Source: Escherichia phage WG01
Sequence record: NC_031928.1
Length of the DNA stretch: 64,000 nt
Direction: 5' to 3' (one strand)
The translations under genes were made by a program, and so were the position numbers. Within the stretch, counting starts at the first letter, position 1; every line of letters starts with the position of its first letter. Below, one piece after another: positions 2,256-61,989 of the stretch. The notes beneath the pieces were generated by a model. That model searched no databases and was not told the origin of the DNA. It was given only the letters and a program-made list of their open reading frames with translations.

Positions 2256-2262
2256 ATTTTTC

Positions 2263-2466
2263 TCAATTCAGGTTACGTTTAAAAATGTCTGCCACTTCAA
2301 GGAGCTCGTCCTTAGTAGCGATGTCGTTGAGTATTTTATATCTGATTTCTTTAAAGCGTTCTTTAAAATCCTCAGCCGCATTGATATCAAAAAATCGTTG
2401 GATTAACCGGAATTCTTTATGGACGGCTTTATCGAACAAATCAATATTCACTTTAAAGTTTGTCAT
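2263..2466 (-). CDS. hypothetical small protein (rIIA.1 position)
   Basis: 67-aa ORF directly upstream of rIIA, co-directional; no recognised motif. Confidence 0.5.
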   Translation of the reverse strand: MTNFKVNIDLFDKAVHKEFRLIQRFFDINAAEDFKERFKEIRYKILNDIATKDELLEVADIFKRNLN

Positions 2467-2776
2467 TTTTAACTACCTCATGTTGAACATATTCTCTGGT
2501 AGAACCTAGTTCAGCCAGAATTCTTCTCATAGAACCCATTGTACTTTTGTGCTCTCTGTGGCGATACATTATCTCTAAAACCTTTTCCTGGACCACAGGA
2601 GAGAGCGCCTGGTTATCTTTAATCTTTAAGGCAATAGATTTTACAGCCTTAAGGTATTCAAGTCCCTTACCGCTTGTAGTCACTACTCCTTCATCTTTAC
2701 AGTTACGAATGGCCGTTTCCATAAAGGATAAAGCTAGATTGTCAGTGTTCACTATACTGTTATCTTGCATAATCAT
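2453..2776 (-). CDS. hypothetical protein
   Basis: ORF-track ORF 2453..2809 trimmed to ATG at 2776 which has a GAGGTGA RBS; no recognised motif. Confidence 0.45.
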   Translation of the reverse strand: MIMQDNSIVNTDNLALSFMETAIRNCKDEGVVTTSGKGLEYLKAVKSIALKIKDNQALSPVVQEKVLEIMYRHREHKSTMGSMRRILAELGSTREYVQHEVVKNDKL

Positions 2777-2823
2777 ATTCTCACCTCTAGATAATCCTAT
2801 CATAACCACAGGTCTTTGTAAAC

Positions 2824-2848
2824 CCCGAAAAGGGCCCGAAGGCCCTTA
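2824..2848 (-). terminator. stem-loop terminator (GNRA-like CGAA loop)
   Basis: AAGGGCC CGAA GGCCCTT hairpin after small ORF 2854..3015. Confidence 0.5.
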
Positions 2849-2853
2849 TTAGT

Positions 2854-3015
2854 TTAGTTACTTGAATCGACCTTATAGACTTGTCCGCGGGTTTGGTAAA
2901 CTTCGCCGTCCCATGTCTCGACTGTAATAGTCACGTATTCTGCAAACTGAGGTCTAGTATCAGTCCAGATATAACCGTATTCACCGGTGACGAGCGTAAC
3001 CCAGTACTTTCTCAT
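2854..3015 (-). CDS. hypothetical small protein (53 aa)
   Basis: Hand-translated minus ORF MRKYWVTLVTGEYGYIW... with AAGGAG RBS 6 nt upstream; below the track length cutoff; followed by terminator hairpin. Confidence 0.35.
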   Translation of the reverse strand: MRKYWVTLVTGEYGYIWTDTRPQFAEYVTITVETWDGEVYQTRGQVYKVDSSN

Positions 3016-3059
3016 AAAGTCTCCTTTTGTATGGCACCAATTAGTACCATACGTATTTA

Positions 3060-6109: not shown

Positions 6110-6661
6110 TTATGCAAAATGAATATCAGCATACTCAACAATAAAACTTTCAGGAACTACTTTAAAGGTGCCAAGGAACACGATGTTATACAGCTTAACA
6201 CCTTCTTCAACCCATTGGTCTGTGATGTAACCGGACATACTAGTGGTTTCATAAGTCGGACCGTACTTGCACTTGTATTCAAACGGTTTAGGTGAAACGA
6301 AAAAGACACCTTTACCTAATTTCCATTTGAAATCAACACCAACATGAGATTGGTCAATAGTTTCAACGTCTTGAGCTACTACGCCACGGATATCATTGCT
6401 TTCACACACATACCCATCATGGGATTCAACTTCTTCAACTACAGGAGCGATGTATCCGGTAAATTCAGTCGATTCCAAGAATTTAGGATGCACATAGGCA
6501 AATTCGGTTTCGGTATGGCCATTTTTAGGAATGATACGCACTTTAACTTCTTTAATTCCACCTACTAAATTAGTACGAATACCTGCAACTTCAACAAAAC
6601 GACCCGCGGCTTTTGAGCGAGATTCTTTGGATACACGAACAATTTCACCGATAGTAATCAT
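6110..6661 (-). CDS. hypothetical protein, paralog A of tandem pair
   Basis: 183 aa; C-terminal block ITDQWVEEGVKLYNIVFLGTFKVVPESF shared with the adjacent ORF. Confidence 0.6.
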   Translation of the reverse strand: MITIGEIVRVSKESRSKAAGRFVEVAGIRTNLVGGIKEVKVRIIPKNGHTETEFAYVHPKFLESTEFTGYIAPVVEEVESHDGYVCESNDIRGVVAQDVETIDQSHVGVDFKWKLGKGVFFVSPKPFEYKCKYGPTYETTSMSGYITDQWVEEGVKLYNIVFLGTFKVVPESFIVEYADIHFA

Positions 6662-6692
6662 AATTTTTCTCTCTTGGTTAAAGGTTTATTCT

Positions 6693-6731
6693 CCATGAGA
6701 GCCATTATAACATGGCCCTCGATAAAGTAAA
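6693..6731 (-). promoter_or_regulatory. early promoter (GTTTAC -35, TTATAAT -10) with inverted repeat
   Basis: gtaaac at 6726-6731 and attataa -10 region; flanking ccatgagag/ctccatgag repeat upstream of 6110..6661. Confidence 0.45.
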
Positions 6732-6734
6732 CTA

Positions 6735-7283
6735 TTAATTCAATACATTAACCACTGCACTACGAGGTACTACACTAAAATCACCAGCATGTACAACGTT
6801 CAACAGCTCAACCCCATCTTCAACCCATTGGTCTGTTACCCATCCACAGATAGGATTATCAAAAGGACGACGGATAGACACAGCACGAGTTAGAAGGTCG
6901 GTAGGGCCTTGTTCTTCAACTTCTTGGAACAGGATGAACTCTGCTTCATAAACCAGGGTTTGCTCAATTTTGTTATTGTCTAAACGACGGCCGTGGAGAA
7001 TATAGGCTTTAGAGAACCACTCACTTTTGGCAAATTCTTCAACAATAAATTCGCCTTCGCCAAAAACATCAGTCAGGGTTTTATGGCCGGAAATCAAGGC
7101 CTTAGTTTTAATTTCAGGTTCAACCAGTTTGTAGGTTTTGCCGATTTCGATAGTCTGAGTAGTCATAGTAGGTTCCTTAATTTCCAGTGGTTTAACAGGG
7201 CATACATAAGTGCTTAAAACATCAAAATCAATCAGTTTAGCTGCAGGATTTGGTGTATATTCAGGGTTATAATTAAATTTCAT
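6735..7283 (-). CDS. hypothetical protein, paralog B of tandem pair
   Basis: 182 aa; C-terminal block VTDQWVEDGVELLNVVHAGDFSVVPRSAV shared with 6110..6661. Confidence 0.6.
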   Translation of the reverse strand: MKFNYNPEYTPNPAAKLIDFDVLSTYVCPVKPLEIKEPTMTTQTIEIGKTYKLVEPEIKTKALISGHKTLTDVFGEGEFIVEEFAKSEWFSKAYILHGRRLDNNKIEQTLVYEAEFILFQEVEEQGPTDLLTRAVSIRRPFDNPICGWVTDQWVEDGVELLNVVHAGDFSVVPRSAVVNVLN

Positions 7284-7789
7284 AATTTTCTCATTTCAAT
7301 AAAATCTACGAGTTCGGCATAGGATTTGCGGAACATTAATTGTCGGCCACCGATGACAACCTCATCTTCTGGTATTTCGTAAACAGCAAGATAGAATCCT
7401 TTAGAAGATAATTCTTCACGCTCTTCACGAGTGAACCAGCGCATCATATCATACTCGCTGGCAAAAGCAAAATGGTAAAGATTAACAAACCAACCTGGAA
7501 TATAATCATCACAGCCTTCATAATCAGGCTGGTTCCACTTAGTTCGAATGGTTTTATTAGAATTTTCCACCAACAACTTGTCTTGACTTGGTAGTGGAAT
7601 ATTTTTATTATTGGTATGATGGTGTCTAAAATTAGGTCTGTCGAAACCTACTTCCAATAACCAACCTTCACTCCATTCGTCAAATGAGCCTCTATACGGG
7701 GTTAATTGGCGGCATTGTTGTCGAGTGATTGCGATAACATCGCTGTTGTCTAGGATACTGAACGATGACTCCACTCGATAAATTTTCAT
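7280..7789 (-). CDS. hypothetical protein
   Basis: 169-aa ORF with own early-promoter cassette; no recognised motif. Confidence 0.5.
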   Translation of the reverse strand: MKIYRVESSFSILDNSDVIAITRQQCRQLTPYRGSFDEWSEGWLLEVGFDRPNFRHHHTNNKNIPLPSQDKLLVENSNKTIRTKWNQPDYEGCDDYIPGWFVNLYHFAFASEYDMMRWFTREEREELSSKGFYLAVYEIPEDEVVIGGRQLMFRKSYAELVDFIEMRKL

Positions 7790-7803
7790 TTTGTTCTCCT
7801 CAT

Positions 7804-7845
7804 GTTGATAGGGTAGATAATATCATGTCATGAGGAGAAGTAAAC
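7804..7845 (-). promoter_or_regulatory. early promoter cassette with perfect inverted repeat CTCCTCATG/CATGAGGAG
   Basis: GTTGATAGGGTAGATAATATCA core, gtaaac 7840-7845. Confidence 0.55.
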
Positions 7846-7849
7846 ACTT

Positions 7850-8524
7850 TTATCGATTTTTTACACTTAACGGGTCAGGATTCTCAGGGACATCTTCCAG
7901 GCCTAAGGCATAACGTTGGGCATATTTCAGCATCAAGATATCCTTAGCACAGTCATGGATGGAGTCATGGGCAACAAAGCCATTCAATGTTCCGTTAGGC
8001 AGAGGACACATGCTCAATCCACGAGTTAGTGAATATGCTTCAATAGCCGTACGGATGTCACGTTGGTTCCAGAATTTAACCGGTTCTAATTTACTGGTAT
8101 CGATTTCATTCTCAGGAACACCTTCAGAACGATAAGCATCACGAATTAAGTCGACTAAGATAGGAAAGTCAAAGGACATTCCACGGCACCACATCTGTGA
8201 TTTCCACTGGTCTACTTCGTTTTTACGGCAGTATTCCAAGAAATTACCAAGGCCGATAGAAGTGGACACATCAATTTCGGATGGCGCCAGGTTTTTACGT
8301 GCTTCAGGCCCTTGCTCTTTCCACCACTGTAACGTGCTTTTAGAAAACAGACGTCTATCACGCTGAGAAGCGAGGTCAAATTTAATACGAAGGCCTCGTT
8401 GAGTAAGCTCTTCAAACGTTTCTACAACCTCTGGATTAGGGTCGTAAGCAATTACGGCTAGGTCGATAACCGCTGCATTTTGAGTAGTGGCAAAGGTTTC
8501 AAAGTCAATAATTATATCTTTCAT
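7850..8524 (-). CDS. dexA: exonuclease A (DnaQ-like 3'-5' DEDD exonuclease)
   Basis: 224 aa; N-terminal IIDFETFATT Exo I motif; position upstream of dda as in T4. Confidence 0.75.
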   Translation of the reverse strand: MKDIIIDFETFATTQNAAVIDLAVIAYDPNPEVVETFEELTQRGLRIKFDLASQRDRRLFSKSTLQWWKEQGPEARKNLAPSEIDVSTSIGLGNFLEYCRKNEVDQWKSQMWCRGMSFDFPILVDLIRDAYRSEGVPENEIDTSKLEPVKFWNQRDIRTAIEAYSLTRGLSMCPLPNGTLNGFVAHDSIHDCAKDILMLKYAQRYALGLEDVPENPDPLSVKNR

Positions 8525-8760
8525 TTAACGTACCTCATAAGGTCTCGGATTTGGCCAACGGTGTAGTCTTCAATATAAACCGAAGAGATATTGTCGTCCA
8601 TCAGATTTTGTACTGCAATAAAATCACTTTCAATCTCTTTAAGAGAGTTCAGGACAGTATGGGCCTTTTGCCTAATGCTGATATTATTTTGGTTGACTTT
8701 AATAATATGTTCGGTTTCGAATTTCAACTTATAAAATTGGTCTTTAGTTACTTTAATCAT
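8521..8760 (-). CDS. hypothetical small protein
   Basis: ORF-track ORF trimmed to ATG at 8760 with GAGGAAA RBS; sits between dda and dexA. Confidence 0.4.
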   Translation of the reverse strand: MIKVTKDQFYKLKFETEHIIKVNQNNISIRQKAHTVLNSLKEIESDFIAVQNLMDDNISSVYIEDYTVGQIRDLMRYVK

Positions 8761-8767
8761 ATTTTCC

Positions 8768-10099
8768 TCAAACGTAGTAGGCGTCAGTACGAGCACGAGT
8801 AATACTAACATAAGCCAGCTGTGAAGCTAAATTCGCATCAGCCATATGCATGCATGGAGTATAGATGAAACTGTTTTGGACTGTAAGTCCTTGGGATTTA
8901 TGAACAGTGCTCACAGGAAGAGCTCGAACCTTACTGAACATTCGCTTGGCTTTCCAGAAATCAGCCCACTTAGGTTTCTTACCACTACCACGCATGGCTT
9001 TGTACTCTGTAGCAACCTTAGCCAAGAAATAATGGAACTTCTCAACTGAAGCCTCATCGATAACCTTTAAATGCTCTACATAGTACTCGTCGTCTTCATC
9101 AACAGATTCTACTTGCAAGTCCCAGTAATTAATCATTTGACGAGTGCCTACATCCTTAGCAGACAAAAACAACGAGGTATGGTTCACATCCAGAATACGA
9201 ACCATTTGTCCATTATTAAAAATGGTTTCAGAGAATTTCTTACCATCGTATTCAAGTTCCTTCATAAAAGGCTCTTGCATCACTAGGATTTCGCCCTTGA
9301 TATAAGGTGCATCGGTTTCATAAAGCTTTTTACGAATAATGCTATTCAGCTTTTCAACCGATTTATTGGTATAAGCAAACATCCTATTCTCAAACAGGGC
9401 ATCAGCATCTTTTACAATGGAAAAATAATTCATCATAAAATCTTTTAATGCTGTTTGGGATTTAAAACCATGGACACCATGTCCTTCGAATACACAATCT
9501 CTAAACCACCCACCATTACGGATTTCAGTAGCCACCTCAATGATAGGAGCATTACTACGCATCACTTCAGTCAAATGTAATTGTTTGATTTTTGGATGTG
9601 TAAAGAATGGAGACAACTGAGGGCTACCATCACTTCCAGGTTCCACTGGCTGTAGCTGAGCTCTGTCGCCAATCCCTAATACAGTACACCATGGTGGCAC
9701 GGAGGATTCAATAATCTTAAACAGCTTACCGTCAATCATCGAGCCTTCGTCAACAACTAGAACATTACATTTGCTCAAGTCAGGAGCTTCGCGTTGTTCA
9801 AAGATGTCCTGGTCTTCGTACGTAGTAGGGTTAATTTTTAGAATTCTATGAATTGTTGATGCTTCTTGACCTGCGAGTTTCGACAGCACCTTTTTGGCCG
9901 CATGGGTAGGTGCAGTCAAAATAACTCCGAGTTCACCATTCTTGACTAGATGGTCAAGAATAAATTTGGTAAGGGTTGTTTTACCCGTACCAGCAGGGCC
10001 GTTCAATGTAATCCATTCGCCCTTACGTCGTTTAATAGCTTCAATGATTTCTTTAAAGGCCGTCCTCTGGCCGATGTTCAAGTCTTCAAATGTAATCAT
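8768..10099 (-). CDS. dda: Dda DNA helicase (SF1)
   Basis: 443 aa; Walker A GPAGTGKTT; length and position as T4 Dda. Confidence 0.9.
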   Translation of the reverse strand: MITFEDLNIGQRTAFKEIIEAIKRRKGEWITLNGPAGTGKTTLTKFILDHLVKNGELGVILTAPTHAAKKVLSKLAGQEASTIHRILKINPTTYEDQDIFEQREAPDLSKCNVLVVDEGSMIDGKLFKIIESSVPPWCTVLGIGDRAQLQPVEPGSDGSPQLSPFFTHPKIKQLHLTEVMRSNAPIIEVATEIRNGGWFRDCVFEGHGVHGFKSQTALKDFMMNYFSIVKDADALFENRMFAYTNKSVEKLNSIIRKKLYETDAPYIKGEILVMQEPFMKELEYDGKKFSETIFNNGQMVRILDVNHTSLFLSAKDVGTRQMINYWDLQVESVDEDDEYYVEHLKVIDEASVEKFHYFLAKVATEYKAMRGSGKKPKWADFWKAKRMFSKVRALPVSTVHKSQGLTVQNSFIYTPCMHMADANLASQLAYVSITRARTDAYYV

Positions 10100-14749: not shown

Positions 14750-15271
14750 TTAATAACCTCGGTCTTGGCGAGCGAAGTTTTCAGCATTTTTCAGATAATA
14801 CAGTTTAAAGATTTCTTCAGCAGTCAGTCCAAGACCTTGGAACATATTCAGAACAAAGTGCAGAATATCAATCATTTCGAATTTAATTTCGAGCTGGTCT
14901 TCAGGAGACAAATCGTTAATCAGGGTTTCACGACGTTCAGCATGTTGAGCTTTCCAAGGCTTCCATACAGCGCTCGCATCTTTTTCGCCATTGCTCATGC
15001 CACCAAGAGAAGTCAGAAGTTCGCGGAATTCATCATCAATATAATCTTTCTGATTGCGCAACCAATCAACAACTTCACCTGCAGTAGCCAAGTCATCAGG
15101 ATGACGGTTATATTCAGGTTTATCTTTAGCCAAACGGACCTGTAATGATTTCTGCATATCAAGCATAACCTGCAGAGGGTCTTTATCTTCGTGAATCAGA
15201 GCATTAAAATAAGCTTCCTCAGCTTTATCAACACCAGCAATAAGTTGTGAGCATTCGTTAAAGTGTGCCAT
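14750..15271 (-). CDS. 56: dCTP pyrophosphatase (MazG-like dCTPase)
   Basis: 173 aa, length and position between soc and 61 as T4 gp56. Confidence 0.8.
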   Translation of the reverse strand: MAHFNECSQLIAGVDKAEEAYFNALIHEDKDPLQVMLDMQKSLQVRLAKDKPEYNRHPDDLATAGEVVDWLRNQKDYIDDEFRELLTSLGGMSNGEKDASAVWKPWKAQHAERRETLINDLSPEDQLEIKFEMIDILHFVLNMFQGLGLTAEEIFKLYYLKNAENFARQDRGY

Positions 15272-20395: not shown

Positions 20396-20709
20396 CTCTT
20401 AGATTTAATTTTATCCAGTTCTTCTTGTATTTGCATTGTAACACATTTTTCTACATGAAGCGCTAGCTCTTCTTTTCGGTCTTCGGAAGGTGTTCCGAAA
20501 TCAACCGACACTTTTCCATCTTTCTCAATAACAATATTCATCACATAAACGATGTGAGCAGTGCCATCGGGTAAAGTAAGCATAATTTCCTGCTTAACAG
20601 AACCCATTGACTTACGGATTATATCTAATGATTTCTCATAATACCGAGGGTCACTAGGACCCTCTTCGGTATCTTTAACAAAATTATCTAAATCAGATAA
20701 ATCAGTCAT
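20380..20709 (-). CDS. hypothetical protein (gene 40 position)
   Basis: 109-aa ORF between uvsX and 41; assignment by position only. Confidence 0.45.
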   Translation of the reverse strand: MTDLSDLDNFVKDTEEGPSDPRYYEKSLDIIRKSMGSVKQEIMLTLPDGTAHIVYVMNIVIEKDGKVSVDFGTPSEDRKEELALHVEKCVTMQIQEELDKIKSKRWWKW

Positions 20710-21874
20710 CTAAATCCATCTCTTCTAAATCGCTTTCGATGTCAGCGGCGCTTTGGGTATTTCCGCCTAATTTAACAGCAACGTTCTTAGAGACACGAGA
20801 GTTAATAAGGTCATTTACCGCATCGTCAACTTCTTTAATAGAATTAATTGCACCAAGCTTATACTTATTCTCGATTGCTTCACGGAACGGAGCATGTTTA
20901 AACAGTGGTCCCCAGAACTCAACACAATCGGTAGCTTTAGCACGCCATGCTTTTTCTTCTTGAACCATTTCACCTGTGGTTTCGTCAAGGAATGCACGAT
21001 TATACCAACCAGCTTTAGGTTTCACGACAAAGCCGATATCAGTAGCCATTTCAAGCAATCCACTGAATGGGTCGATACCACCTTCGAAGTTCACTGTAAT
21101 CGGGAACGTTGATTTCTCTTTAACCGTACGAGATTTCTCGGCCTTCAGTGTGAAGTCATAACCAGTGAGCTCAGTACCATCTTTAACCTGACGTTTAGAG
21201 ATAAAGAACACGGTAGAAGCAGAGTACAGAATACCAGTACCACCACCCATAATCTCTTTAGGGTACATTCCACCAATTTCCATAGCCGTGTGGTTAATTG
21301 CTACACAAGGGATATCTTTGATAGTCAGATAAGGTGTTACGATACGGAACAGAGATTTCAGTGACTTAGCACGGGTCATATCACCTACAACTTTCTCGTT
21401 CAAAGCATCTTCGGTTTCTTTCTTAGAAGCAGTGTTACCAATGGAGTCGATAAAGATAATAACCTTTTCGCCACGAGTAATTTCTTCTAACTGGTTGGTC
21501 ATATCAACTTTAAGCTGTTCGACTGACTGGATTGGTGTATGAACCACACGTTCCAAATCAACACCCATCGAACGGAAATAAGATTCTGAAGCACCAAACT
21601 CAGAGTCATAGAACAAACAAATTGCGTCTGGATATTTCTTCATATATGCCGCAACCATGGTAAGTCCAAACAACGTTTTAAAGTGTTTAGATGGAGCAGC
21701 AAAGATTGTCAAACCTGATTGTAAGCCTGCATTCAACGCACCGCCTAATGCAATATTCAGCATAGGGATACGAGTAGGAACTTCGTCACGACCATTAAAC
21801 AATTTAGATTTGGTCAGGTCGGCGGTCATTTTAGAAGTAGAAGCTTTAATCAAACGGGATTTTAAATCAGACAT
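20702..21874 (-). CDS. uvsX: UvsX recombinase (RecA-like)
   Basis: 390 aa; RecA-fold Walker A region around GLQSGLTIFAAPSKHFKT; length as T4 UvsX. Confidence 0.9.
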   Translation of the reverse strand: MSDLKSRLIKASTSKMTADLTKSKLFNGRDEVPTRIPMLNIALGGALNAGLQSGLTIFAAPSKHFKTLFGLTMVAAYMKKYPDAICLFYDSEFGASESYFRSMGVDLERVVHTPIQSVEQLKVDMTNQLEEITRGEKVIIFIDSIGNTASKKETEDALNEKVVGDMTRAKSLKSLFRIVTPYLTIKDIPCVAINHTAMEIGGMYPKEIMGGGTGILYSASTVFFISKRQVKDGTELTGYDFTLKAEKSRTVKEKSTFPITVNFEGGIDPFSGLLEMATDIGFVVKPKAGWYNRAFLDETTGEMVQEEKAWRAKATDCVEFWGPLFKHAPFREAIENKYKLGAINSIKEVDDAVNDLINSRVSKNVAVKLGGNTQSAADIESDLEEMDLDD

Positions 21875-21951
21875 TATATTTTTCCATAGGCATCATTATA
21901 TTTTACTCACGTTTTAAGATAGGGTAATTATATCACTTCACATTTACAGCG

Positions 21952-22845
21952 TTAAAGGACCACGTCCTCATAACTTGGCATTTCGTGCTCAGAATGGATG
22001 TGGGCACCGAAATAAATGAATTCAGCCAGACCAGGATGGAATACTAAACTGGGATTCTCATGATAAATGATATGAGGTCTTGATTTCAGAATCTGATAAT
22101 ATTCAACCTTACTCGGTTTGAATTTAATAATCTCTACATCAGGACGATGGTCTTCACGCTTAAATGAATCATTCGGATCGGTGATATAAAGGCGAGAACC
22201 TTCAGCCGCAGCTTGGTCTACAACTCTTTCGAATTGATAGCATTTATCTGAGATACGGAATGGATGGAAAATACCATCAATTTTAATAGGCGCTAGACCT
22301 TCAGAGTAACGCTCAATTACTGCGGGATTAATTACCTTTTGGTCTACAAAAATCTTATCAGAGGACGCACCTCGTGACACCAGGACGTCTTTCTGACATT
22401 GATTCAAGACTGTAGTATAAATCGAACGTTCAACTGAACCCACGTCGGTATCAATAAACTCATCGATGTAATAACGAGGAACTTCAGGGTCCATTGTAAT
22501 GTTAAAGTTGAATTGTACAGTCTGAGTGCCATCATAACCTGTGATATCGGTTACCAATCCTGAGCAGTCATAGTATTCGATTAACGAATCAACAACGAAC
22601 TCATTTTCAGACCAAAAATGTTTACGAGTTTCATAAGCATTTTCTTTATACCAAAGCGGTACAAAATTCAGTTCAGGAAATAATTCAATGCATTCTTTGA
22701 TATCGCTCGAATTTCTAGGATAAGCCAGATAATCACCTGGGCAAGCACGGTTTAAATGGAGTTGAAAATTACCGTCCTTAAGGACGGCATATTCACCTGT
22801 TTCGTAACTACGCATACTGAAAATAGGAACGATAAACAAACTCAT
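21952..22845 (-). CDS. orphan protein at the beta-glucosyltransferase locus; candidate hmC glycosyl(arabinosyl)transferase
   Basis: 297-aa ORF, ATGA-coupled to gene 42; occupies the position of beta-gt but does not resemble recalled T4 beta-gt; function inferred from context only. Confidence 0.6.
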   Translation of the reverse strand: MSLFIVPIFSMRSYETGEYAVLKDGNFQLHLNRACPGDYLAYPRNSSDIKECIELFPELNFVPLWYKENAYETRKHFWSENEFVVDSLIEYYDCSGLVTDITGYDGTQTVQFNFNITMDPEVPRYYIDEFIDTDVGSVERSIYTTVLNQCQKDVLVSRGASSDKIFVDQKVINPAVIERYSEGLAPIKIDGIFHPFRISDKCYQFERVVDQAAAEGSRLYITDPNDSFKREDHRPDVEIIKFKPSKVEYYQILKSRPHIIYHENPSLVFHPGLAEFIYFGAHIHSEHEMPSYEDVVL

Positions 22846-23540
22846 TTCAGGAATCCTCGAACGTAGTCAAAATCACGTTCAAATACGTGTGCACTAACCA
22901 TAGTATGGGAATACGTACCCAGACCAACACCACACTGTTCAGCAATAAAGGCCATCAGTTTACCCTGCAGATAGAAATCCAGCTGCATAACAATAGCACA
23001 GTTCTGTGAACGCATATGGGTATGTGCATAAAGACGTCCATCACGAATATAATATGTCACTGAATCAGTACATGGATATTCTAAGGATTCGTCAGAATCA
23101 AGGAGGGCTTGGTCTTGTTCTTGGAGAATTTGGAACACAACTCGTCTTGAGTTAGGCTTCTCTTTAAGCTCTTTAAGTAAGGCTGGGAGTTGGGCCACAA
23201 TTCTAGGTCCATAGAAAGTGTTGAAGTTTGCAGGCAATACGTCACTTTTCGGCTTATCAATGAACTTAGCAACATTAGGGTATTCCTTAAATGCTTCGGC
23301 GGCGTCAGTACCACCAGAAATCATAAACTTCCAGAAAGATTCGGCATAATCATAGTTGATACGATTAATACGAGGGTCGGTGAATTTATAGGTGCTTGCA
23401 TCCAGTACTTCTACCGAAGCAGAACCAATTTCATAACAACGGCCGATACGAGAATCAACTGCAAACTGTGGAGCTTCCAGGATTTCTTCGTTCATTTGCT
23501 TAAACGCGTTTTCAAAACTAACAGCGGTAATGTGTTTCAT
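22842..23540 (-). CDS. 42: dCMP hydroxymethylase (thymidylate synthase family)
   Basis: 232 aa; TS-family blocks PNSRRVVFQI, YPCTDSVTYYIRDGRL, MRSQNCAIVMQLDFY align with recalled T4 gp42 (PDSRR, CTNTVQYLIRD, MRSND). Confidence 0.75.
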   Translation of the reverse strand: MKHITAVSFENAFKQMNEEILEAPQFAVDSRIGRCYEIGSASVEVLDASTYKFTDPRINRINYDYAESFWKFMISGGTDAAEAFKEYPNVAKFIDKPKSDVLPANFNTFYGPRIVAQLPALLKELKEKPNSRRVVFQILQEQDQALLDSDESLEYPCTDSVTYYIRDGRLYAHTHMRSQNCAIVMQLDFYLQGKLMAFIAEQCGVGLGTYSHTMVSAHVFERDFDYVRGFLK

Positions 23541-24073
23541 TTATTCACCTTATTTTCAATATATTCATTCAGACGTTTTAATTCTACCATATCGACGTTA
23601 AGCAAGTTATTATGGCCGTCGTGATTTAAGATTTTAAACACGTTTTCAAAACATGTTTCATATTGCCGGATAGTTAGGTTGAACTCATCTTTGGTTAATT
23701 TAATAAGGTCATCTTCAAAGTCTTTATCCAGTGGATTACGGGTTAAAATAACCTCAATAATATTGAATTCAGATTTAAACCCTTTCCAATCTTCCAGTTC
23801 TACATAAGGGTCCATTTCACCACGAAGGAATCCAGAGTAAACAATATTACTAGGATACCCACGGTCTAAGATGTAGACAAAATTAGGGTCTAAAAACTTA
23901 TACAACGTCTCGACTAAAGCCTTGTCATTATCAGTCCCTAATGAAATGCATTTGCCATTAATCTTTTTAGGGAAATCAATAAGACGATATTTCTTATCAG
24001 ATAAAAGTGATTCAATTAAAGTAGACTTCCCGGAATTATCCGGGCCGTCGATAACAATGATTTTTGGTTTCAC
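23537..24073 (-). CDS. P-loop kinase (dNMP/thymidylate kinase-like fold)
   Basis: 178 aa; Walker A IVIDGPDNSGKST at N-terminus; first codon is GTG overlapping the upstream stop. Confidence 0.6.
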   Translation of the reverse strand: MKPKIIVIDGPDNSGKSTLIESLLSDKKYRLIDFPKKINGKCISLGTDNDKALVETLYKFLDPNFVYILDRGYPSNIVYSGFLRGEMDPYVELEDWKGFKSEFNIIEVILTRNPLDKDFEDDLIKLTKDEFNLTIRQYETCFENVFKILNHDGHNNLLNVDMVELKRLNEYIENKVNK

Positions 24074-24444
24074 GGATGATATGCCTTATAGGTTTCAAGA
24101 GTTCCTTCACGAACCATTTCTTTAAAGTGGTCAGGACGGATTGCTCGGTCATCGATGATAAAAGTATAACTCGGCTTATGTGTAAGCAGATTGTGATATT
24201 TCAATCCAATCTTTTCAAGGTTCTTAACTAATGCAGGAACTACTTCAACCAAGATTCGACCCGGGCCGCATGAAGTCATACCACGGGCAGTGAACAAGGT
24301 AATCTCGTACCCTTCATCATAAAGCTTATTAATCATGGACACCATTTCGGTGTCCGGTTTAAAGTTTTCGTAATCACGGTCATCTTGCCAGTGAGTAATG
24401 GTATTATCGATATCAAAACACAGATGCATTAAATTTTCTTCCAT
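24070..24444 (-). CDS. HAD-superfamily phosphatase
   Basis: 124 aa; HAD motif I FDIDNTIT near N-terminus; alternative start at 24429. Confidence 0.6.
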   Translation of the reverse strand: MEENLMHLCFDIDNTITHWQDDRDYENFKPDTEMVSMINKLYDEGYEITLFTARGMTSCGPGRILVEVVPALVKNLEKIGLKYHNLLTHKPSYTFIIDDRAIRPDHFKEMVREGTLETYKAYHP

Positions 24445-26102
24445 TGTTTGTGGAGTTCGGTAGAACCTGTAGGTTTATATTTTACACCAGTTTCCTGGTC
24501 AAGCAAAACCCACTTATCAGGACAACGAGTGATAATTTGAGCCGTGATAGGGTCGCGAACTTCATCAACGAATTCACCTGTGATAAGCTTACGCTTACGA
24601 GGATGCCGCTTCAGCAGCACACTCAGTTGATATAGCCCATTGTAATAAGCGCCCAGAGCTTTCAGAGGGTTATTTTTAAAGTAACCTGCCAATGCCATCC
24701 AAATAACGGCAATCCAGAGCTTGTGCTTAAATGTACACATCGGAATATCATCTAAAGGCATAACCTTTTCAATATCAACGAATACACGAGTTCCGTTACG
24801 AGTTAATCCGCCCCATAGAGGGTCAGAGTTAAATTTGTCATAACCATCGATAGAATAAAGCACCTTAGCTTCATCATAAATCGCAGGGCCTTTAGAACTA
24901 TTACCAAAATAACCACGTGGGTCGATGATTTTAATATTACCTTCGTCCGACAACATAATATTACTGTAGTGCGGGTCGCCATGAATAAGTTGGTACGGTT
25001 CTTTATGTTCAGACAGAATTTCTAAGGCGTGACGAAGAAGTTTTTCTGGGTCGCCTACCTTGAAGTCGTTAACATGGGTAATACCCTGTGGAGCAAAGCC
25101 TTCAATCAATCCGGCAATAGAAGCATTACGAATAAGGACCTTGTCCAATACTTCTTTCTTAACATCAGAATACCATTGCTCATCGGACGGATTATCGATA
25201 GTTCCACCGAACGAACGTAATGCACTAATAACCTTATAAACCATTAGGACTTTAGTTTCTTTAGACATAAACCGGTAGGCATCTGCCATGGTTCGACCAA
25301 AGATACGTTCCATTTTAATGAATTCGCCTGGAGCAAAGTCTACAATGCTAGGAACGAATTCGGAATCAATAGAATTATACCAATTGATTTCTTTAGATTG
25401 GATTTCTTTACCCAATTCGTTAGTTGGTACTTTAATAGCTAGATTCTCGGTGAACTCTAATTTATTAAATTCACGGTTAATTTCAGAATCTTCATGCGCC
25501 TTAGCCAGTTTCAGTTTGTCACCAACATCAACTACAAAGTCTAACTTACGTTCAGTCAAATGGACCATTGAATCCAGGTTGTCAGCAAGGTCTTCACCAT
25601 AATTAGAACGGTCGAAACCTGTCCAATTAGCCACCTGATACAAGCCAACTACGCCACCACCGGTACCAATTTCACGCAAGTACGGTTCTTCAAATGTAAA
25701 ACGACAGTCAGTCCCATAGGTATAACAGTAGTCGTTATCCCACTCAACTTTATGACCTTCAGGAATAATATCACACCAGTTAAACAAGACATTGTGCCCA
25801 ATGATATCTTCGGCAATGCAATCGATAGCATGAGCCGAACCATTGGCAACATCAACGTTACGAATAGTGAATTTAGGCTTATCACTATTAATCATGTTAA
25901 TGGATTTAATATAGCCTTTAACGAGGTCGTTAAATTTGCTGTGAATAACCAGAATAATTTCATCTGATTGATTACTATACAAATCATACAAATGTTTTAA
26001 TACAGTATGTTGTTTGTAGTTAACCAGTACCTTCGGGATTTCGTTGGTAATTGGATACAACCGTGAGCCAAGACCCGCGCCTAAAATAACAACCTTTTTC
26101 AT
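24429..26102 (-). CDS. bifunctional sugar-1-phosphate nucleotidyltransferase / APH-fold sugar kinase
   Basis: 557 aa from ATG 26102 (GAGGAA RBS); N-terminal NTase motif ILGAGLGSRLYPIT; C-terminal kinase motifs LIHGDPHYSNIM and IIDPRGYFG. Confidence 0.75.
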   Translation of the reverse strand: MKKVVILGAGLGSRLYPITNEIPKVLVNYKQHTVLKHLYDLYSNQSDEIILVIHSKFNDLVKGYIKSINMINSDKPKFTIRNVDVANGSAHAIDCIAEDIIGHNVLFNWCDIIPEGHKVEWDNDYCYTYGTDCRFTFEEPYLREIGTGGGVVGLYQVANWTGFDRSNYGEDLADNLDSMVHLTERKLDFVVDVGDKLKLAKAHEDSEINREFNKLEFTENLAIKVPTNELGKEIQSKEINWYNSIDSEFVPSIVDFAPGEFIKMERIFGRTMADAYRFMSKETKVLMVYKVISALRSFGGTIDNPSDEQWYSDVKKEVLDKVLIRNASIAGLIEGFAPQGITHVNDFKVGDPEKLLRHALEILSEHKEPYQLIHGDPHYSNIMLSDEGNIKIIDPRGYFGNSSKGPAIYDEAKVLYSIDGYDKFNSDPLWGGLTRNGTRVFVDIEKVMPLDDIPMCTFKHKLWIAVIWMALAGYFKNNPLKALGAYYNGLYQLSVLLKRHPRKRKLITGEFVDEVRDPITAQIITRCPDKWVLLDQETGVKYKPTGSTELHKQWKKI

Positions 26103-26162
26103 TATCTGTTCCTCAAGTGAATGTAGGTACATTATACACTATTTTTAATAAATTGGTATTGC

Positions 26163-26663
26163 TTAAATCTTATCTTTACCGATTTCAATACACTGTTCTA
26201 TTGCCGCCGGTGCTTTGGTCTTGAGCTTATCGATTTGTTTCTTATAATCACGAGCTTTACCGAAGCTCTCGGTTTCGAGCATTTCGTAATAACGAGCCTC
26301 GTGGATGGAAATCTGTAGATTGATATGGTTTACGCACATCGCATACAGTTTCTGCTTTTTGTACAAATCATCTTGACGCTTCATTTCTGCCTGGTGTTTG
26401 GCTAGTACCGCTTCACGCTTGGACTCTTGTTCACGTTGGAATTCGATTTCCCTTTGAGCATATTTTGCACAGTTATTACCACATTGATTATTGGCTCGGG
26501 TGTACACAAGTCCAGAACCTGCACGGAATTTCATTTCGCCATCGAATTGTTTCTGTTCAGCTGCGATACGAGCTTTACCAACTTCATCAGCCGAAACTGC
26601 ATCACCATATTGGACCGCGCAACCTGATAGGAGCATACTCATTGCGATAATTAACTTTTTCAT
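26163..26663 (-). CDS. putative lipoprotein with coiled-coil region
   Basis: 166 aa; signal peptide with lipobox LLSGC; GAGGA RBS. Confidence 0.55.
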   Translation of the reverse strand: MKKLIIAMSMLLSGCAVQYGDAVSADEVGKARIAAEQKQFDGEMKFRAGSGLVYTRANNQCGNNCAKYAQREIEFQREQESKREAVLAKHQAEMKRQDDLYKKQKLYAMCVNHINLQISIHEARYYEMLETESFGKARDYKKQIDKLKTKAPAAIEQCIEIGKDKI

Positions 26664-26670
26664 AATATCC

Positions 26671-26808
26671 TCAATTAAAACAGTTATACTTAATTTGTGC
26701 TATAAGAATAATCCATCCGATGATTAGTGTCGGAATCATTGGCGGAATTGCCACTGCCCAATAAATGGTAAAGGCAGTCATTATAAGAAATAAAATAATT
26801 ATTTTCAT
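26671..26808 (-). CDS. small membrane protein (45 aa)
   Basis: Hand-translated hydrophobic ORF MKIIILFLIMTAFTIYWAVAIPPMIPTLIIGWIIL...; ATGA-coupled to imm; below track cutoff. Confidence 0.35.
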   Translation of the reverse strand: MKIIILFLIMTAFTIYWAVAIPPMIPTLIIGWIILIAQIKYNCFN

Positions 26809-27041
26809 TGCTTAACAATAATGATTTGTGCGTTTGATTTACGTTCAGCGACGATAGCCCAGATTAAAGCCACTACCCAACCAATCATAGTCCATCCTAA
26901 CAGAAGGTTTAGGAAGAAAATTCCGACATTACTACGAGTGCCTCGCAGAAGAGCCAGAATCCATGGTAAAAAGTAACCGATGAACATAATAACCAGAGAA
27001 CCGAATCCTAAAACACCAGCACTAACGATTAAAGCTTCCAT
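26805..27041 (-). CDS. imm: superinfection immunity membrane protein
   Basis: 78 aa, two TM helices, LNLLLGWTMIGWVVALIWA block typical of Imm family; position next to 43. Confidence 0.6.
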   Translation of the reverse strand: MEALIVSAGVLGFGSLVIMFIGYFLPWILALLRGTRSNVGIFFLNLLLGWTMIGWVVALIWAIVAERKSNAQIIIVKQ

Positions 27042-60492: not shown

Positions 60493-61076
60493 TTACGGCA
60501 TTCCTTAATAAAAGAGTTTAATGTATTTTTCTTAGTGATATCGTCATATACCTTTTTAACTTTAGAAATACGAAAAGGTACTTCGATAACAGAGGTCCAT
60601 AAAAATGATGCGATAAGACCTAAGATAGCAGCAGACATCGCTGAAGCGAATACACAAATAGGCAGGTCATTATCTGTTGTCAGGAAAAACCCTAGGAGTG
60701 GGAAAAATAATATACCCATCCAAACATAGAATCTAGAACTCACCAATTTGTCGTATTCATCACTCCAGGCACGGAAGCCGTATTTTTTGCTATAACAAAT
60801 CAATGGGTCTGGAGTCTGTTCTTTATATGGTTCCGCTTGCCAGCCGTTTACAATATAGCCCATTTTATATTCCTCAATTAAAAGCTGTTTCATTTCGGCA
60901 GTACAACCTGACCAATCTATTGTACTGGCTGAAATTCCTTCATCACAGTCATCGATATTTCGCCAGGACTTTTTAATAATCATATTCTCACCACTTGGGA
61001 TAATAATTCCAGCATTTTCCGACCGACGGATGAAGTTTGTATCAATACCCATACAACCAGGTTCATAAAGGGCCAT
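60489..61076 (-). CDS. membrane protein
   Basis: 195 aa; two C-terminal TM helices. Confidence 0.45.
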   Translation of the reverse strand: MALYEPGCMGIDTNFIRRSENAGIIIPSGENMIIKKSWRNIDDCDEGISASTIDWSGCTAEMKQLLIEEYKMGYIVNGWQAEPYKEQTPDPLICYSKKYGFRAWSDEYDKLVSSRFYVWMGILFFPLLGFFLTTDNDLPICVFASAMSAAILGLIASFLWTSVIEVPFRISKVKKVYDDITKKNTLNSFIKECRK

Positions 61077-61762
61077 TACCAGCCCTCCATAGGGAATTCC
61101 AGATATACTTGAGCATTAACGCGGATTTCATTTGTAATCTTTTTAACACGGTCTGTATTACGAGACACACGACCAAACCAGCGCCAACCGTTACTTACTG
61201 CACGAGAACCTGTATGCCATGTCTGCCAATCAAACTGGAGCAACGTGCGGTCAGGAGCATCCCACTTAGTTAATTCATTAGACTCAATTTTTTCCAGAAC
61301 TTCTTTATGCCACTGGCGATAGATAAGTTCGCCTTCAGGAATCTGACTGAACTGGGCAGTTCCGGTTGCAAAATGAGTAGGACACACATCAGCGTTAACA
61401 AGACCAAGAATATGTTCAGAATGGTATCGAGGATTATCATAATCAGGTTGCCCTGCGGTAATAAAGTGTTGACCCACCGGAATATCCGGGCGTGGTACAT
61501 CATCATGGTGGAAGCCTGGAATTGCAGGGTACCAGCCGGGCATTAACATGTGTACACGGGAATCAAATACGCATTCAACGGCTTTCCACTCATCAGGGAG
61601 ATTAGTAATAAAGCTACGAGTAATAGGACCACCATTTTGTGCAGCAAAATTCAAATCACAGTTAAAGAACATAGGCTCGTTTTTAATATCATCATTAGAA
61701 ATATGACCTGCAAAACCACCTACTGCACGAGCTTTAGAATTAAAAGTTTTCGGACCGTTCAT
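61076..61762 (-). CDS. hypothetical protein
   Basis: 228-aa ORF, His/Asp-rich; no assigned fold. Confidence 0.5.
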   Translation of the reverse strand: MNGPKTFNSKARAVGGFAGHISNDDIKNEPMFFNCDLNFAAQNGGPITRSFITNLPDEWKAVECVFDSRVHMLMPGWYPAIPGFHHDDVPRPDIPVGQHFITAGQPDYDNPRYHSEHILGLVNADVCPTHFATGTAQFSQIPEGELIYRQWHKEVLEKIESNELTKWDAPDRTLLQFDWQTWHTGSRAVSNGWRWFGRVSRNTDRVKKITNEIRVNAQVYLEFPMEGW

Positions 61763-61776
61763 AATATTTTCCTCAC

Positions 61777-61989
61777 TTACTTTTTGTTGAAAAAGTACAT
61801 TTTACCTTTAGGAGATAAGGATACACGAAGTGCGTTACCAATACCAACTGAACATTTAACCAGGTCAGCAGATTTCAATTCACCAAATGCTTGACGAAGG
61901 TCACCATCACGAGTGTTAACCATCAGGCATTTAGCACCAGCTGCACGAACTTCGTTTAACATGTTGATTGCTTGGTTAGAAAGTTTCAT
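61777..61989 (-). CDS. hypothetical protein
   Basis: ORF-track ORF trimmed to ATG 61989 with GGAGAA RBS. Confidence 0.45.
   Translation of the reverse strand: MKLSNQAINMLNEVRAAGAKCLMVNTRDGDLRQAFGELKSADLVKCSVGIGNALRVSLSPKGKMYFFNKK

What the first reader, a model, noticed from the sequence alone, without database searches (positions are those of the whole stretch)
21952..26132. Candidate non-glucose hmC hypermodification module: orphan transferase at the beta-gt locus plus an inserted NDP-sugar salvage block
dCMP hydroxymethylase (42) is present, so the phage makes hmC DNA. At the T4 beta-gt position (between uvsX and 42) there is a 297-aa protein unlike recalled T4 beta-gt, and no alpha-gt lies between 47 and 55. 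Inserted between 42 and imm, where T4 has no genes, are three translationally coupled genes: a P-loop kinase, a HAD phosphatase (DxDxT) and a nucleotidyltransferase fused to an APH-fold kinase. A free sugar or sugar-phosphate could be dephosphorylated, phosphorylated at C1 and activated to an NDP-sugar for transfer to hmC. This is the architecture expected for arabinosyl-hmC phages of the RB69 type, but the pathway logic here is inferred from the sequence, not known.
Basis: partly seen in the sequence, partly recalled or inferred. Interest (0 to 1): 0.85.

Follow-up and report, generated by a model that had tools for sequence, protein, structure and literature searches.

The report
Arabinosyl-5-hydroxycytosine DNA modification gene cluster
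This is a JS98-type (Dhakavirus) coliphage's copy of the recently characterised RB69-type gene cluster that replaces cytosine with 5-hydroxycytosine and attaches arabinose to it; it is a real module already described in the literature, here in a reduced form with one transferase and no phage isomerase.

Summary
The five minus-strand genes at 21952-26132 are real, joined by overlapping stop and start codons, and 99% identical to Dhakavirus genomes (QL01, IME540). Each is an orthologue of a gene in the RB69 cytosine-arabinosylation cluster.

- **The base.** The "gene 42" protein is 79% identical to RB69 gp48, the experimentally shown flavin-dependent 5-hydroxy-dCMP synthase. It is only 25% identical to T4 gp42. 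It carries the published diagnostic D169N substitution. The base is therefore 5-hydroxycytosine, not hmC.
- **The P-loop protein.** It has a thymidylate-kinase fold, so it is a nucleotide kinase, not a sugar kinase.
- **The sugar route.** The published order is arabinose-5-P to Araf-1,5-bisphosphate (kinase domain), to Araf-1-P (HAD phosphatase), to UDP-Araf (nucleotidyltransferase domain).

The 297-aa protein models confidently as a GT-B glycosyltransferase and is the orthologue of RB69 gp46:47.

Compared with RB69, this genome lacks the phage arabinose-5-P isomerase, the U32-like gene and the second transferase. This predicts mono-arabinosylation fed by host arabinose-5-P. A 2026 paper already lists Dhakaviruses as carrying this syntenic cluster, so novelty is low. 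Three things remain untested: the actual nucleoside in Dhakavirus DNA, the role of the kinase, and the acceptor of the first transferase.

The parts
21952..22845 (-). First DNA/nucleotide arabinosyltransferase (GT1), 297 aa, GT-B fold; orthologue of RB69 gp46:47 and DLP3 gp79
22842..23540 (-). 5-hydroxy-dCMP synthase (thymidylate-synthase-superfamily, flavin-dependent dCMP hydroxylase), 232 aa; not a gene-42 hydroxymethylase
   Evidence: It is 79% identical to RB69 gp48 and 25% identical to T4 gp42. It matches PDB 9iqu/9iqc/9ir2 at E 1.5e-125. Alignment A1 shows C146 kept, D169N, N177D and L143E, whereas T4 gp42 keeps D169. The diagnostic value of D169N and the enzyme activity of RB69 gp48 are shown in PMC13326640.
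23537..24073 (-). Thymidylate-kinase-like P-loop nucleotide kinase, 178 aa (GTG start); orthologue of RB69 gp45; substrate unknown
24070..24444 (-). HAD phosphatase, 124 aa (alternative start ATG 24429, 119 aa); orthologue of RB69 gp51 and HY126 AfhF; predicted Araf-1,5-bisphosphate 5-phosphatase
   Evidence: It is 62% identical to RB69 gp51. It matches PDB 9iqw at E 2.8e-53 and 1xpj at 2.8e-12. It hits TIGR01689 capsule biosynthesis phosphatase at 1.6e-14, below the family cut-off. It has the DIDNT motif. The function of the orthologue is taken from PMC13326640.
24429..26102 (-). Bifunctional sugar-1-P nucleotidyltransferase (N-terminal) and APH-fold sugar kinase (C-terminal), 557 aa; orthologue of RB69 gp52:53 and HY126 AfhE; predicted arabinose-5-P 1-kinase plus UDP-Araf pyrophosphorylase
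   Evidence: Pfam gives NTP_transferase at residues 13-110 and APH at 356-427 of the 567-aa ORF. It is 44% and 41% identical to RB69 gp53 and gp52, and 80% to Marfavirus F48. It matches phrog_4098 at E 5e-269 from residue 11. Motifs GLGSR, HGDPHYSN and IDPRG are present. The start at 26102 follows a GAGG ribosome-binding site.
26103..26162 (-). Intergenic leader of the five-gene unit, with a TATAAT box at 26136-26131 and a GAGG ribosome-binding site
   Evidence: Read directly from the sequence. There is no good -35 element, and the consensus scan did not list the site. Promoter function is therefore inferred only.
14750..15271 (-). gp56-type dCTPase/dUTPase (173 aa), outside the finding; supplies dCMP and keeps dCTP out of the DNA
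   Evidence: It matches phrog_173 nucleoside triphosphate pyrophosphohydrolase at E 1.3e-46 and phrog_18650 dUTPase. Its role is taken from established T4 biology and PMC13326640 Table 1 (RB69p028).

Best explanation
The block is the Dhakavirus version of the arabinosyl-5-hydroxycytosine pathway described for RB69, DLP3 and HY126.

Nucleotide branch:
1. The phage dCTPase makes dCMP.
2. The 232-aa thymidylate-synthase homologue hydroxylates dCMP at C5 using flavin and O2, giving 5-hydroxy-dCMP.
3. The gp1-type dNMP kinase, which lies elsewhere in the genome, and possibly the 178-aa thymidylate-kinase-like enzyme, together with host NDP kinase, make the triphosphate.
4. The gene-43 polymerase incorporates it in place of dC.

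Sugar branch:
1. Arabinose-5-phosphate comes from the host isomerases KdsD and GutQ, because no phage isomerase is present.
2. The C-terminal kinase domain of the 557-aa protein phosphorylates it at C1.
3. The 124-aa HAD phosphatase removes the 5-phosphate.
4. The N-terminal nucleotidyltransferase domain converts Araf-1-P to UDP-arabinofuranose.

The 297-aa GT-B transferase then attaches arabinofuranose to the 5-hydroxyl. With no second transferase, the expected product is mono-arabinosyl-5-hydroxycytosine.

Status of each step: orthology, folds and signature residues are shown here. The enzyme activities are shown only for the orthologues, in the literature. Host supply of arabinose-5-P, mono-arabinosylation and the role of the 178-aa kinase are inferred.
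For: - One-to-one orthology of all five proteins with RB69 gp45, gp46:47, gp48, gp51 and gp52:53.
- D169N, N177D, L143E and C146 in the synthase. These were validated as a predictor of 5-hydroxy-dCMP synthesis on nine further homologues in PMC13326640.
- Solved structures of near relatives: 9iqu/9iqc at E 1e-125 and 9iqw at E 3e-53.
- The GT-B fold of the 297-aa protein has the same best structural matches (6kih, 3c4q) as published for RB69 gp46:47.
- The 178-aa protein has a thymidylate-kinase fold.
- The pathway steps come from PMC13326640.
- Dhakaviruses are named in that paper as carrying the syntenic cluster.
- tblastn with the RB69 isomerase, U32-like protein, second transferase, and T4 alpha-gt and beta-gt finds nothing in the window or in the rest of QL01.
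- The rIIA-gene 39 gap that holds the second transferase in RB69 holds only a 118-aa ORF here.
- A dCTPase is present in the window. alc, denA, denB and gene 1 are present in QL01.
Against: - No nucleoside analysis of any Dhakavirus DNA was found in the searchable literature.
- The sugar-activating enzyme is only 41-44% identical to the characterised Mosigvirus type, and no phage isomerase is present. Arabinose specificity is therefore extrapolated.
- According to PMC13326640, the first transferase showed no activity in vitro on 5-hydroxycytosine DNA with UDP-Araf or UDP-Arap when tested alone. Its acceptor is not established.
- A second transferase of an unrecognisable family cannot be excluded, because these transferases have no Pfam match.
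- The two key primary papers, He et al. 2026 and Mahler et al. 2025, could not be read.
Confidence: 0.85

Rival explanations
1. The phage makes hydroxymethylcytosine with a gene-42 enzyme, and a non-glucose sugar is attached to the hydroxymethyl group. The sugar would be salvaged by dephosphorylation, phosphorylated at C1 by the P-loop kinase, and then activated.
For: The protein sits at the gene-42 position and belongs to the thymidylate synthase family. Older literature described JS98 and RB69 as gene-42 phages, and RB69 DNA as arabosyl-hmC.
Against: It is 25% identical to T4 gp42 and 79% identical to the proven hydroxylase RB69 gp48. It has D169N. The RB69 modification has been re-determined as an ether to 5-hydroxycytosine (PMC13326640, PMC13390438). 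The P-loop protein has a thymidylate-kinase fold. The C1-kinase is the APH-like domain of the fusion protein.
Confidence: 0.03
2. The base is the same (5-hydroxycytosine) but the sugar differs. On this view the isomerase-less Dhaka/Marfa/Braga-type sugar block activates another pentose or sugar phosphate available in the host, such as ribose-5-P or xylulose-derived sugars, so the DNA carries a pentoside other than arabinofuranoside.
For: The fusion enzyme is only 41-44% identical to the RB69 type, although the flanking UvsX and gp43 are 89% and 83% identical. It groups at 71-80% with the Marfavirus and Bragavirus enzymes, whose clusters also lack an isomerase beside gene 43. Records with an isomerase hit show no Klebsiella or Proteus phages among the ten most frequent organism names, and 137 Escherichia records against 175 with the fusion enzyme. 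The modification of the related phage Thanatos was first reported simply as a pentose or deoxypentose.
Against: E. coli makes arabinose-5-P for Kdo synthesis through KdsD and GutQ (established knowledge), so the isomerase is not strictly required. The HAD phosphatase (62%) and the transferase (about 67%) remain close to the RB69 proteins. PMC13326640 treats these genera as arabinosylation clusters.
Confidence: 0.08
3. The genes are the same, but the first sugar is added before replication. GT1 would glycosylate 5-hydroxy-dCMP, and the adjacent thymidylate-kinase-like enzyme would phosphorylate the bulky product that the general dNMP kinase cannot handle. The polymerase would then incorporate an already arabinosylated nucleotide.
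For: - The synthase, GT1 and P-loop kinase occur together in RB69, F48, SJ_PmiM, this window, and the unrelated Pootjesviridae (phiM9; RL38J1 gp214-216).
- The genes are linked here by overlapping stop and start codons.
- The GT1 family is strongly acidic: net charge -19 and pI 4.9 here, family median pI 5.2, against 9.05 for T4 beta-gt.
- PMC13326640 reports no activity of single transferases on 5-hydroxycytosine DNA. It states that the experiments do not distinguish mononucleotide from post-replicative arabinosylation.
Against: - All known phage DNA glycosylation is post-replicative.
- T4 alpha-gt, a true DNA enzyme, is also mildly acidic with pI 6.1.
- The synthase plus the gp1-type kinase suffice to put 5-hydroxy-dC into E. 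coli DNA.
- The later transferases act on DNA.
- He et al. 2026, which I could not read, may already have settled this.
Confidence: 0.1

Closest known systems
RB69 (Mosigvirus) cytosine arabinosylation cluster gp45-gp55 plus gp3; the DLP3 gp76-83 and HY126 Afh genes (Lee et al., NAR 2026, PMC13326640; He et al., Nat Chem Biol 2026; Mahler et al., Cell Host Microbe 2025)
   Same: It occupies the same position between uvsX and gene 43. It has the same five protein families in one-to-one orthology: 5-hydroxy-dCMP synthase, GT-B transferase 1, thymidylate-kinase-like kinase, HAD phosphatase and the nucleotidyltransferase-kinase fusion. The synthase carries the same D169N signature.
   Different: There is no phage arabinose-5-P isomerase (RB69 gp55), no U32-like gene with its small partner (gp50, gp49), and no second transferase (gp3). 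The kinase has moved from the uvsX end to between the phosphatase and the synthase. The sugar-block proteins are only 37-62% identical to RB69's. The imm gene and two small membrane or lipoprotein genes lie between the block and gene 43.
Marfavirus (Klebsiella phage vB_Kpn_F48) and Bragavirus (Proteus phage SJ_PmiM) clusters
   Same: The gene order is the same: fusion enzyme, phosphatase, kinase, synthase, transferase. Neither has an isomerase beside gene 43. Identity to F48 is 76-86% for four of the five proteins and 68% for GT1.
   Different: Those clusters keep the U32-like gene and a small ORF between the kinase and the synthase. The window has lost them or never had them.
T4 hmC glucosylation system (gene 42, alpha-gt, beta-gt)
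   Same: The overall logic is the same: a dCTPase, a thymidylate-synthase-family enzyme making a C5-oxygenated dCMP, then a GT-B transferase using a UDP-sugar. The genomic slot between uvsX and gene 43 is also the same.
   Different: The chemistry differs: flavin- and O2-dependent hydroxylation instead of folate-dependent hydroxymethylation, giving an ether rather than a hydroxymethyl linkage. The sugar differs and must be made by the phage (UDP-Araf) rather than taken from the host (UDP-glucose). There is no sequence homology to alpha-gt or beta-gt.
Shewanella phage Thanatos cluster (TH1_060-063)
   Same: It has a 561-aa fusion enzyme, a 237-aa thymidylate-synthase homologue and a single 300-aa GT-fold protein. 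PMC13326640 describes it as mono-arabinosylated with a single transferase. This is the closest precedent for the single-transferase prediction made here.
   Different: The host and lineage are distant. The 300-aa protein was reported there as a UDP-xylose pyrophosphorylase, which conflicts with a transferase assignment.

Membership tests
[quoted passage not shown] | Thymidylate synthase fold and homology with the catalytic Cys146 retained | tested here: met
   Pfam PF00303 at E 4.8e-14. C146 is invariant in alignment A1. PDB 9iqu matches at E 1.5e-125.
[quoted passage not shown] | Asp169 to Asn (E. coli ThyA numbering), the published diagnostic residue; plus N177D (dCMP preference) and L143E/D | tested here: met
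   The window and RB69 gp48 have RSQN where E. coli has RSCD and T4 gp42 has RSND. The window has D at position 177 and E at position 143. The criterion comes from PMC13326640.
[quoted passage not shown] | Produces 5-hydroxy-dCMP from dCMP with a flavin cofactor and O2 | not testable with these tools
   Shown for RB69 gp48, which is 79% identical, and for the HY126 enzyme. Not shown for this protein.
T4 gp42 dCMP hydroxymethylase | Orthology to gp42 with Asp169 retained | tested here: not met
   25% identity over 159 of 232 residues. Position 169 is Asn. PDB 1b49 (T4 gp42) matches only at E 4.7e-6, against 1e-125 for 9iqu.
AfhE-type bifunctional arabinose-5-P 1-kinase / UDP-Araf pyrophosphorylase (RB69 gp52:53, DLP3 gp82) | N-terminal sugar-1-P nucleotidyltransferase domain fused to a C-terminal APH-fold kinase domain, with full-length homology to the family | tested here: met
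   Pfam NTP_transferase plus APH. 44% and 41% identity to RB69 gp53 and gp52 over the whole length. Motifs GLGSR, HGDPHYSN and IDPRG are present.
AfhE-type bifunctional arabinose-5-P 1-kinase / UDP-Araf pyrophosphorylase (RB69 gp52:53, DLP3 gp82) | Specificity for D-arabinose-5-P and UTP | not testable with these tools
   Extrapolated from HY126 AfhE as summarised in PMC13326640. This protein belongs to a subgroup only about 42% identical to the characterised type.
AfhF-type HAD phosphatase (RB69 gp51, DLP3 gp81) | HAD fold with the DxDxT nucleophile motif and homology to the family | tested here: met
   DIDNT at residues 11-15. 62% identity to RB69 gp51. PDB 9iqw matches at E 2.8e-53.
First arabinosyltransferase (RB69 gp46:47, DLP3 gp79) | Homology to the family, GT-B fold, and a position adjacent to the synthase gene | tested here: met
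First arabinosyltransferase (RB69 gp46:47, DLP3 gp79) | Transfers arabinofuranose from UDP-Araf to the 5-hydroxyl of cytosine | not testable with these tools
   Not demonstrated in vitro even for the orthologues in the paper I could read.
T4 alpha- and beta-glucosyltransferases | Sequence homology to T4 a-gt or b-gt | tested here: not met
Complete RB69-type cluster (poly-arabinosylating) | Phage arabinose-5-P isomerase (SIS domain, gp55) | tested here: not met
   tblastn with RB69 gp55 finds nothing in the window or the rest of QL01.
Complete RB69-type cluster (poly-arabinosylating) | Second GT4-type transferase (gp3) between rIIA and gene 39, and the U32-like gene (gp50) | tested here: not met
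   No tblastn hit. The rIIA-gene 39 gap (2256-3059) holds only a 118-aa ORF. The larger unknown ORFs of the window are homologues of T4 nrdC.4, nrdC.5, nrdC.6, nrdC.10 and nrdC.11.
Thymidylate-kinase-like nucleotide kinase (RB69 gp45, DLP3 gp78, RL38J1 gp214) | P-loop NMP-kinase fold closest to thymidylate kinases, with homology to RB69 gp45 | tested here: met

The most novel reading that the evidence does not exclude
In this minimal cluster, the acidic GT1 and the thymidylate-kinase-like enzyme, which always accompany the synthase, would form a pre-replicative route. On this reading 5-hydroxy-dCMP is arabinosylated as a free nucleotide, phosphorylated by the dedicated kinase, and incorporated by the polymerase already glycosylated. 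That would be the first case of nucleotide-level glycosylation in phage DNA hypermodification. A related possibility is that the isomerase-less Dhaka/Marfa/Braga sugar block attaches a pentose other than arabinose.
Probability: 0.12. Interest if true: 0.7.

Novelty: already known. Interest (0 to 1): 0.22.

Why it matters
It corrects the annotation of a whole genus. Public records label these genes thymidylate synthase or dCMP hydroxymethylase, thymidylate kinase, phosphoheptose isomerase and hypothetical protein. They are in fact the pathway for arabosyl-5-hydroxycytosine DNA.

Dhakaviruses are used as candidate therapeutic coliphages. Their DNA chemistry affects sensitivity to restriction enzymes, CRISPR and type IV restriction systems such as GmrSD/BrxU, and it degrades nanopore sequencing.

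The reduced gene set acts as a natural deletion experiment. It suggests that the phage isomerase, the U32-like gene and the second transferase are dispensable for a functional modification. It also offers a simple system in which to settle the unresolved acceptor of the first transferase and the role of the kinase.

Tried and rejected
- **T4 transferase relative.** I tested whether the 297-aa protein is related to T4 beta-gt or alpha-gt. There is no sequence similarity, so the idea was rejected.
- **Sugar kinase.** I tested whether the P-loop protein is a sugar kinase. Family and fold searches give thymidylate or nucleotide kinases, so the idea was rejected.
- **Missing genes elsewhere.** I looked for the isomerase, the U32-like gene and the second transferase elsewhere in the genome. 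tblastn over the window and the remaining 107 kb of QL01 found none.
- **Hidden second transferase.** I checked the large unannotated ORFs of the window. Five are homologues of T4 nrdC.4, nrdC.5, nrdC.6, nrdC.10 and nrdC.11. Pfam and PHROGs gave no transferase. This check is weak, because GT1 and RB69 gp3 themselves have no Pfam match.
- **Promoter and terminator scan.** It gave no more sites than shuffled sequence and did not define the transcription unit.
- **Literature.** He et al. 2026 and Mahler et al. 2025 are not held. No supplementary files are held for PMC13326640. Searches for Dhakavirus or JS98 nucleoside data found only genomic statements.
- **Kinase homologues.** The word-indexed search found only 9 homologues of the kinase, so its model rests on a shallow alignment.

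Full report
**What is there**

The window is a Dhakavirus (JS98-type T4-like coliphage). Region 21900-26200 is 99.3% identical to phages IME540 and QL01, and 50 records cover at least 80% of it, the listed ones at 93% identity or more.

Five ORFs lie on the minus strand between uvsX (20702-21874) and imm / gene 43:

| Coordinates | Length | Note |
|---|---|---|
| 24429-26132 | 567 aa as the maximal ORF | Real start is ATG 26102, which follows a GAGG ribosome-binding site. The upstream ATG overlaps a TATAAT box. The QL01 annotation agrees with 26102. |
| 24070-24444 | 124 aa | |
| 23537-24073 | 178 aa | GTG start |
| 22842-23540 | 232 aa | |
| 21952-22845 | 297 aa | |

Successive genes overlap by four bases, or by 1-16 bases at the HAD start. 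The unit therefore has five coupled genes, not three.

Pfam gives NTP_transferase plus APH for the large protein.

**What each protein is**

I compared each protein with RB69, whose cluster between uvsX and gene 43 was fetched.

| Window protein | RB69 counterpart | Identity |
|---|---|---|
| 232 aa | gp48 | 79% |
| 297 aa | gp47 and gp46 (two halves of one gene split by a sequencing error) | 69% and 62% |
| 124 aa | gp51 | 62% |
| 557 aa | gp53 and gp52 | 44% and 41% |
| 178 aa | gp45 | 37% |

The 232-aa protein is only 25% identical to T4 gp42, over 159 residues. The 297-aa protein has no similarity to T4 beta-gt.

*The synthase.* In an alignment with E. coli ThyA, T4 gp42, RB69 gp48 and the phage's own thymidylate synthase, the 232-aa protein keeps Cys146. 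It has Asn at position 169, Asp at 177 and Glu at 143. T4 gp42 keeps Asp169. PDB entries 9iqu, 9iqc and 9ir2 match it at E 1e-125.

*The phosphatase.* PDB entry 9iqw matches it at E 3e-53.

**What the literature says**

Lee et al. (NAR 2026, PMC13326640) showed that RB69 and Acinetobacter phage DLP3 carry mono- and poly-arabinosylated 5-hydroxycytosine. The sugar is ether-linked directly to C5, not to hmC.

The main findings relevant here are:
- RB69 gp48 and DLP3 gp80 are 5-hydroxy-dCMP synthases that bind a flavin.
- D169N predicts this activity. The prediction was validated on nine further homologues.
- gp46:47 is proposed as the first arabinosyltransferase, with 3c4q and 6kih as its best structural matches.
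- gp45 is an uncharacterised 'nucleotide kinase'.
- gp51 corresponds to AfhF of phage HY126 and gp52:53 to AfhE.
- The sugar route runs from arabinose-5-P to Araf-1,5-bisphosphate (kinase domain), to Araf-1-P (HAD phosphatase), to UDP-Araf (nucleotidyltransferase domain). gp55 supplies arabinose-5-P from ribulose-5-P.
- The paper names Dhakaviruses among the genera with the syntenic cluster.

A second 2026 paper confirms the revised chemistry for a Mosigvirus (PMC13390438). Older work listed JS98 with RB69 as 'gene 42 but no glucosyltransferase' phages with an unknown modification (PMC2993671).

I found no nucleoside analysis of any Dhakavirus. I could not read He et al. 2026 or Mahler et al. 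2025.

**How this copy differs**

tblastn with the RB69 isomerase (gp55), the U32-like protein (gp50) and the second transferase (gp3), and with T4 alpha-gt and beta-gt, finds nothing in the window. It also finds nothing in the other 107 kb of QL01.

The rIIA-gene 39 gap, where RB69 carries gp3, holds only a 118-aa ORF here. The larger unknown ORFs of the window are homologues of T4 nrdC.4, nrdC.5, nrdC.6, nrdC.10 and nrdC.11.

The gene order here is fusion enzyme, phosphatase, kinase, synthase, transferase. The same order occurs in Marfavirus F48 and Bragavirus SJ_PmiM. Both also lack an isomerase beside gene 43, but both keep the U32-like gene.

The identities are mosaic:

| Protein | vs RB69 | vs Marfavirus F48 |
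|---|---|---|
| UvsX | 89% | 88% |
| gp43 | 83% | 69% |
| Synthase | 79% | 86% |
| GT1 | about 67% | 68% |
| Phosphatase | 62% | 84% |
| Fusion enzyme | 41-44% | 80% |
| Kinase | 37% | 76% |

The sugar block is therefore a distinct allele shared with the isomerase-less genera.

Across the phage collection, 366 records carry the fusion enzyme and 276 carry an isomerase. No Klebsiella or Proteus phages appear among the ten most frequent organism names in the isomerase hits.

**Most likely mechanism**

The pathway in this phage most likely runs as follows:
1. The dCTPase (14750-15271) makes dCMP.
2. The 232-aa enzyme converts dCMP to 5-hydroxy-dCMP.
3. Kinases make the triphosphate, and the polymerase incorporates it.
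4. Host KdsD and GutQ supply arabinose-5-P. This step is my inference from established E. coli Kdo metabolism.
5. The 557-aa and 124-aa proteins make UDP-Araf.
6. The 297-aa GT-B enzyme attaches one arabinofuranose.

A single transferase predicts mono-arabinosylation. Thanatos, with a single transferase, is described as mono-arabinosylated.

Orthology, folds and signature residues are shown here. Enzyme activities are shown only for orthologues. Host supply of arabinose-5-P, the number of sugars and the kinase's role are inferred.

**Open points**

The synthase, GT1 and a P-loop kinase travel together in Straboviridae and in the unrelated Pootjesviridae. In phiM9 the synthase also has RSQN, and the next two genes are a GT1 homologue and a P-loop protein. 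RL38J1 gp214-216 show the same arrangement.

The GT1 family is strongly acidic. Net charge is -19 here and the family median pI is 5.2, against pI 9.05 for T4 beta-gt and 6.1 for alpha-gt.

Lee et al. saw no activity of single transferases on 5-hydroxycytosine DNA. They state that their experiments do not distinguish mononucleotide from post-replicative arabinosylation for the first sugar.

This leaves room for a pre-replicative, nucleotide-level first glycosylation. I rate this at about 10%. A different pentose in the isomerase-less subgroup I rate at about 8%.

**Verdict**

The system is already described, including for this genus at the level of synteny. Interest is therefore low. What remains is the untested chemistry of the reduced Dhakavirus version.

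Noticed in passing
window 26163-27041 (minus strand): Three small envelope-type genes lie between the modification block and gene 43. The first is a 166-aa protein with a lipoprotein signal (MKKLIIAMSMLLSGC; phrog_1754, unknown function). The second is a 45-aa hydrophobic peptide (phrog_3610). The third is Imm (Pfam Imm_superinfect, E 5e-18). In RB69 imm lies elsewhere, next to sp. This may be a superinfection-exclusion cassette.
   Followed up: partly
window 21952-26102 compared with L002 (RB69) and L008 (Marfavirus F48): There is a recombination mosaic inside the module. gp43 and UvsX are closest to RB69 (83% and 89%). The fusion enzyme, phosphatase and kinase are 76-84% identical to Marfavirus F48 but only 37-62% to RB69. 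The sugar block behaves as an exchangeable cassette with two alleles, one with a phage isomerase and one without.
   Followed up: partly
L002 8493-9662 (RB69 gp50); L008 6907-8067 (F48 gp095); absent from the window: The cluster gene called 'peptidase' or 'sugar or heterocycle reductase' matches Pfam Peptidase_U32. From my own knowledge, this family contains E. coli RlhA and TrhP, which are needed for 5-hydroxycytidine in 23S rRNA and for oxygen-independent 5-hydroxyuridine in tRNA. It might therefore be an anaerobic route to 5-hydroxycytosine. The Dhakavirus lacks it.
   Followed up: no
window 26102-26136: The longest ORF of the fusion enzyme begins at an ATG (26132) that overlaps a TATAAT box. 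The real start, ATG 26102, follows a GAGG ribosome-binding site. The finding's end coordinate is therefore 30 bases too far.
   Followed up: yes
L011 (Serratia phage PS2, Muldoonvirus) 6217-9925: A distant GT1 homologue (23% identity, E 4e-9) sits directly after a gene-42-type thymidylate-synthase homologue. It is followed by annotated beta-alpha-gt and beta-gt genes. The GT1 family therefore also occurs in a phage that looks like a glucosylating one.
   Followed up: no
Literature: Shewanella phage Thanatos TH1_063 (PMC12838424): The 300-aa GT1-family protein of Thanatos was reported to have UDP-xylose pyrophosphorylase activity in vitro. Its orthologues are assigned as transferases with a GT-B fold. 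This conflict is unresolved.
   Followed up: no
Public annotations of the same locus (L001, QL01): RefSeq and GenBank records label the five genes hypothetical protein, thymidylate synthase, thymidylate kinase, phosphoheptose isomerase and hypothetical protein. Some records use 'RNA polymerase binding protein' or 'capsid and scaffold protein'. None reflects the arabinosylation pathway.
   Followed up: yes
window 61076-63090 (minus strand): Two conserved proteins of unknown function lie here: 228 aa (phrog_1843) and 340 aa (DUF7277 plus DUF7275). Neither has a homologue in the T4 regions examined. They are the only sizeable window ORFs I could not exclude as additional modification enzymes.
   Followed up: partly
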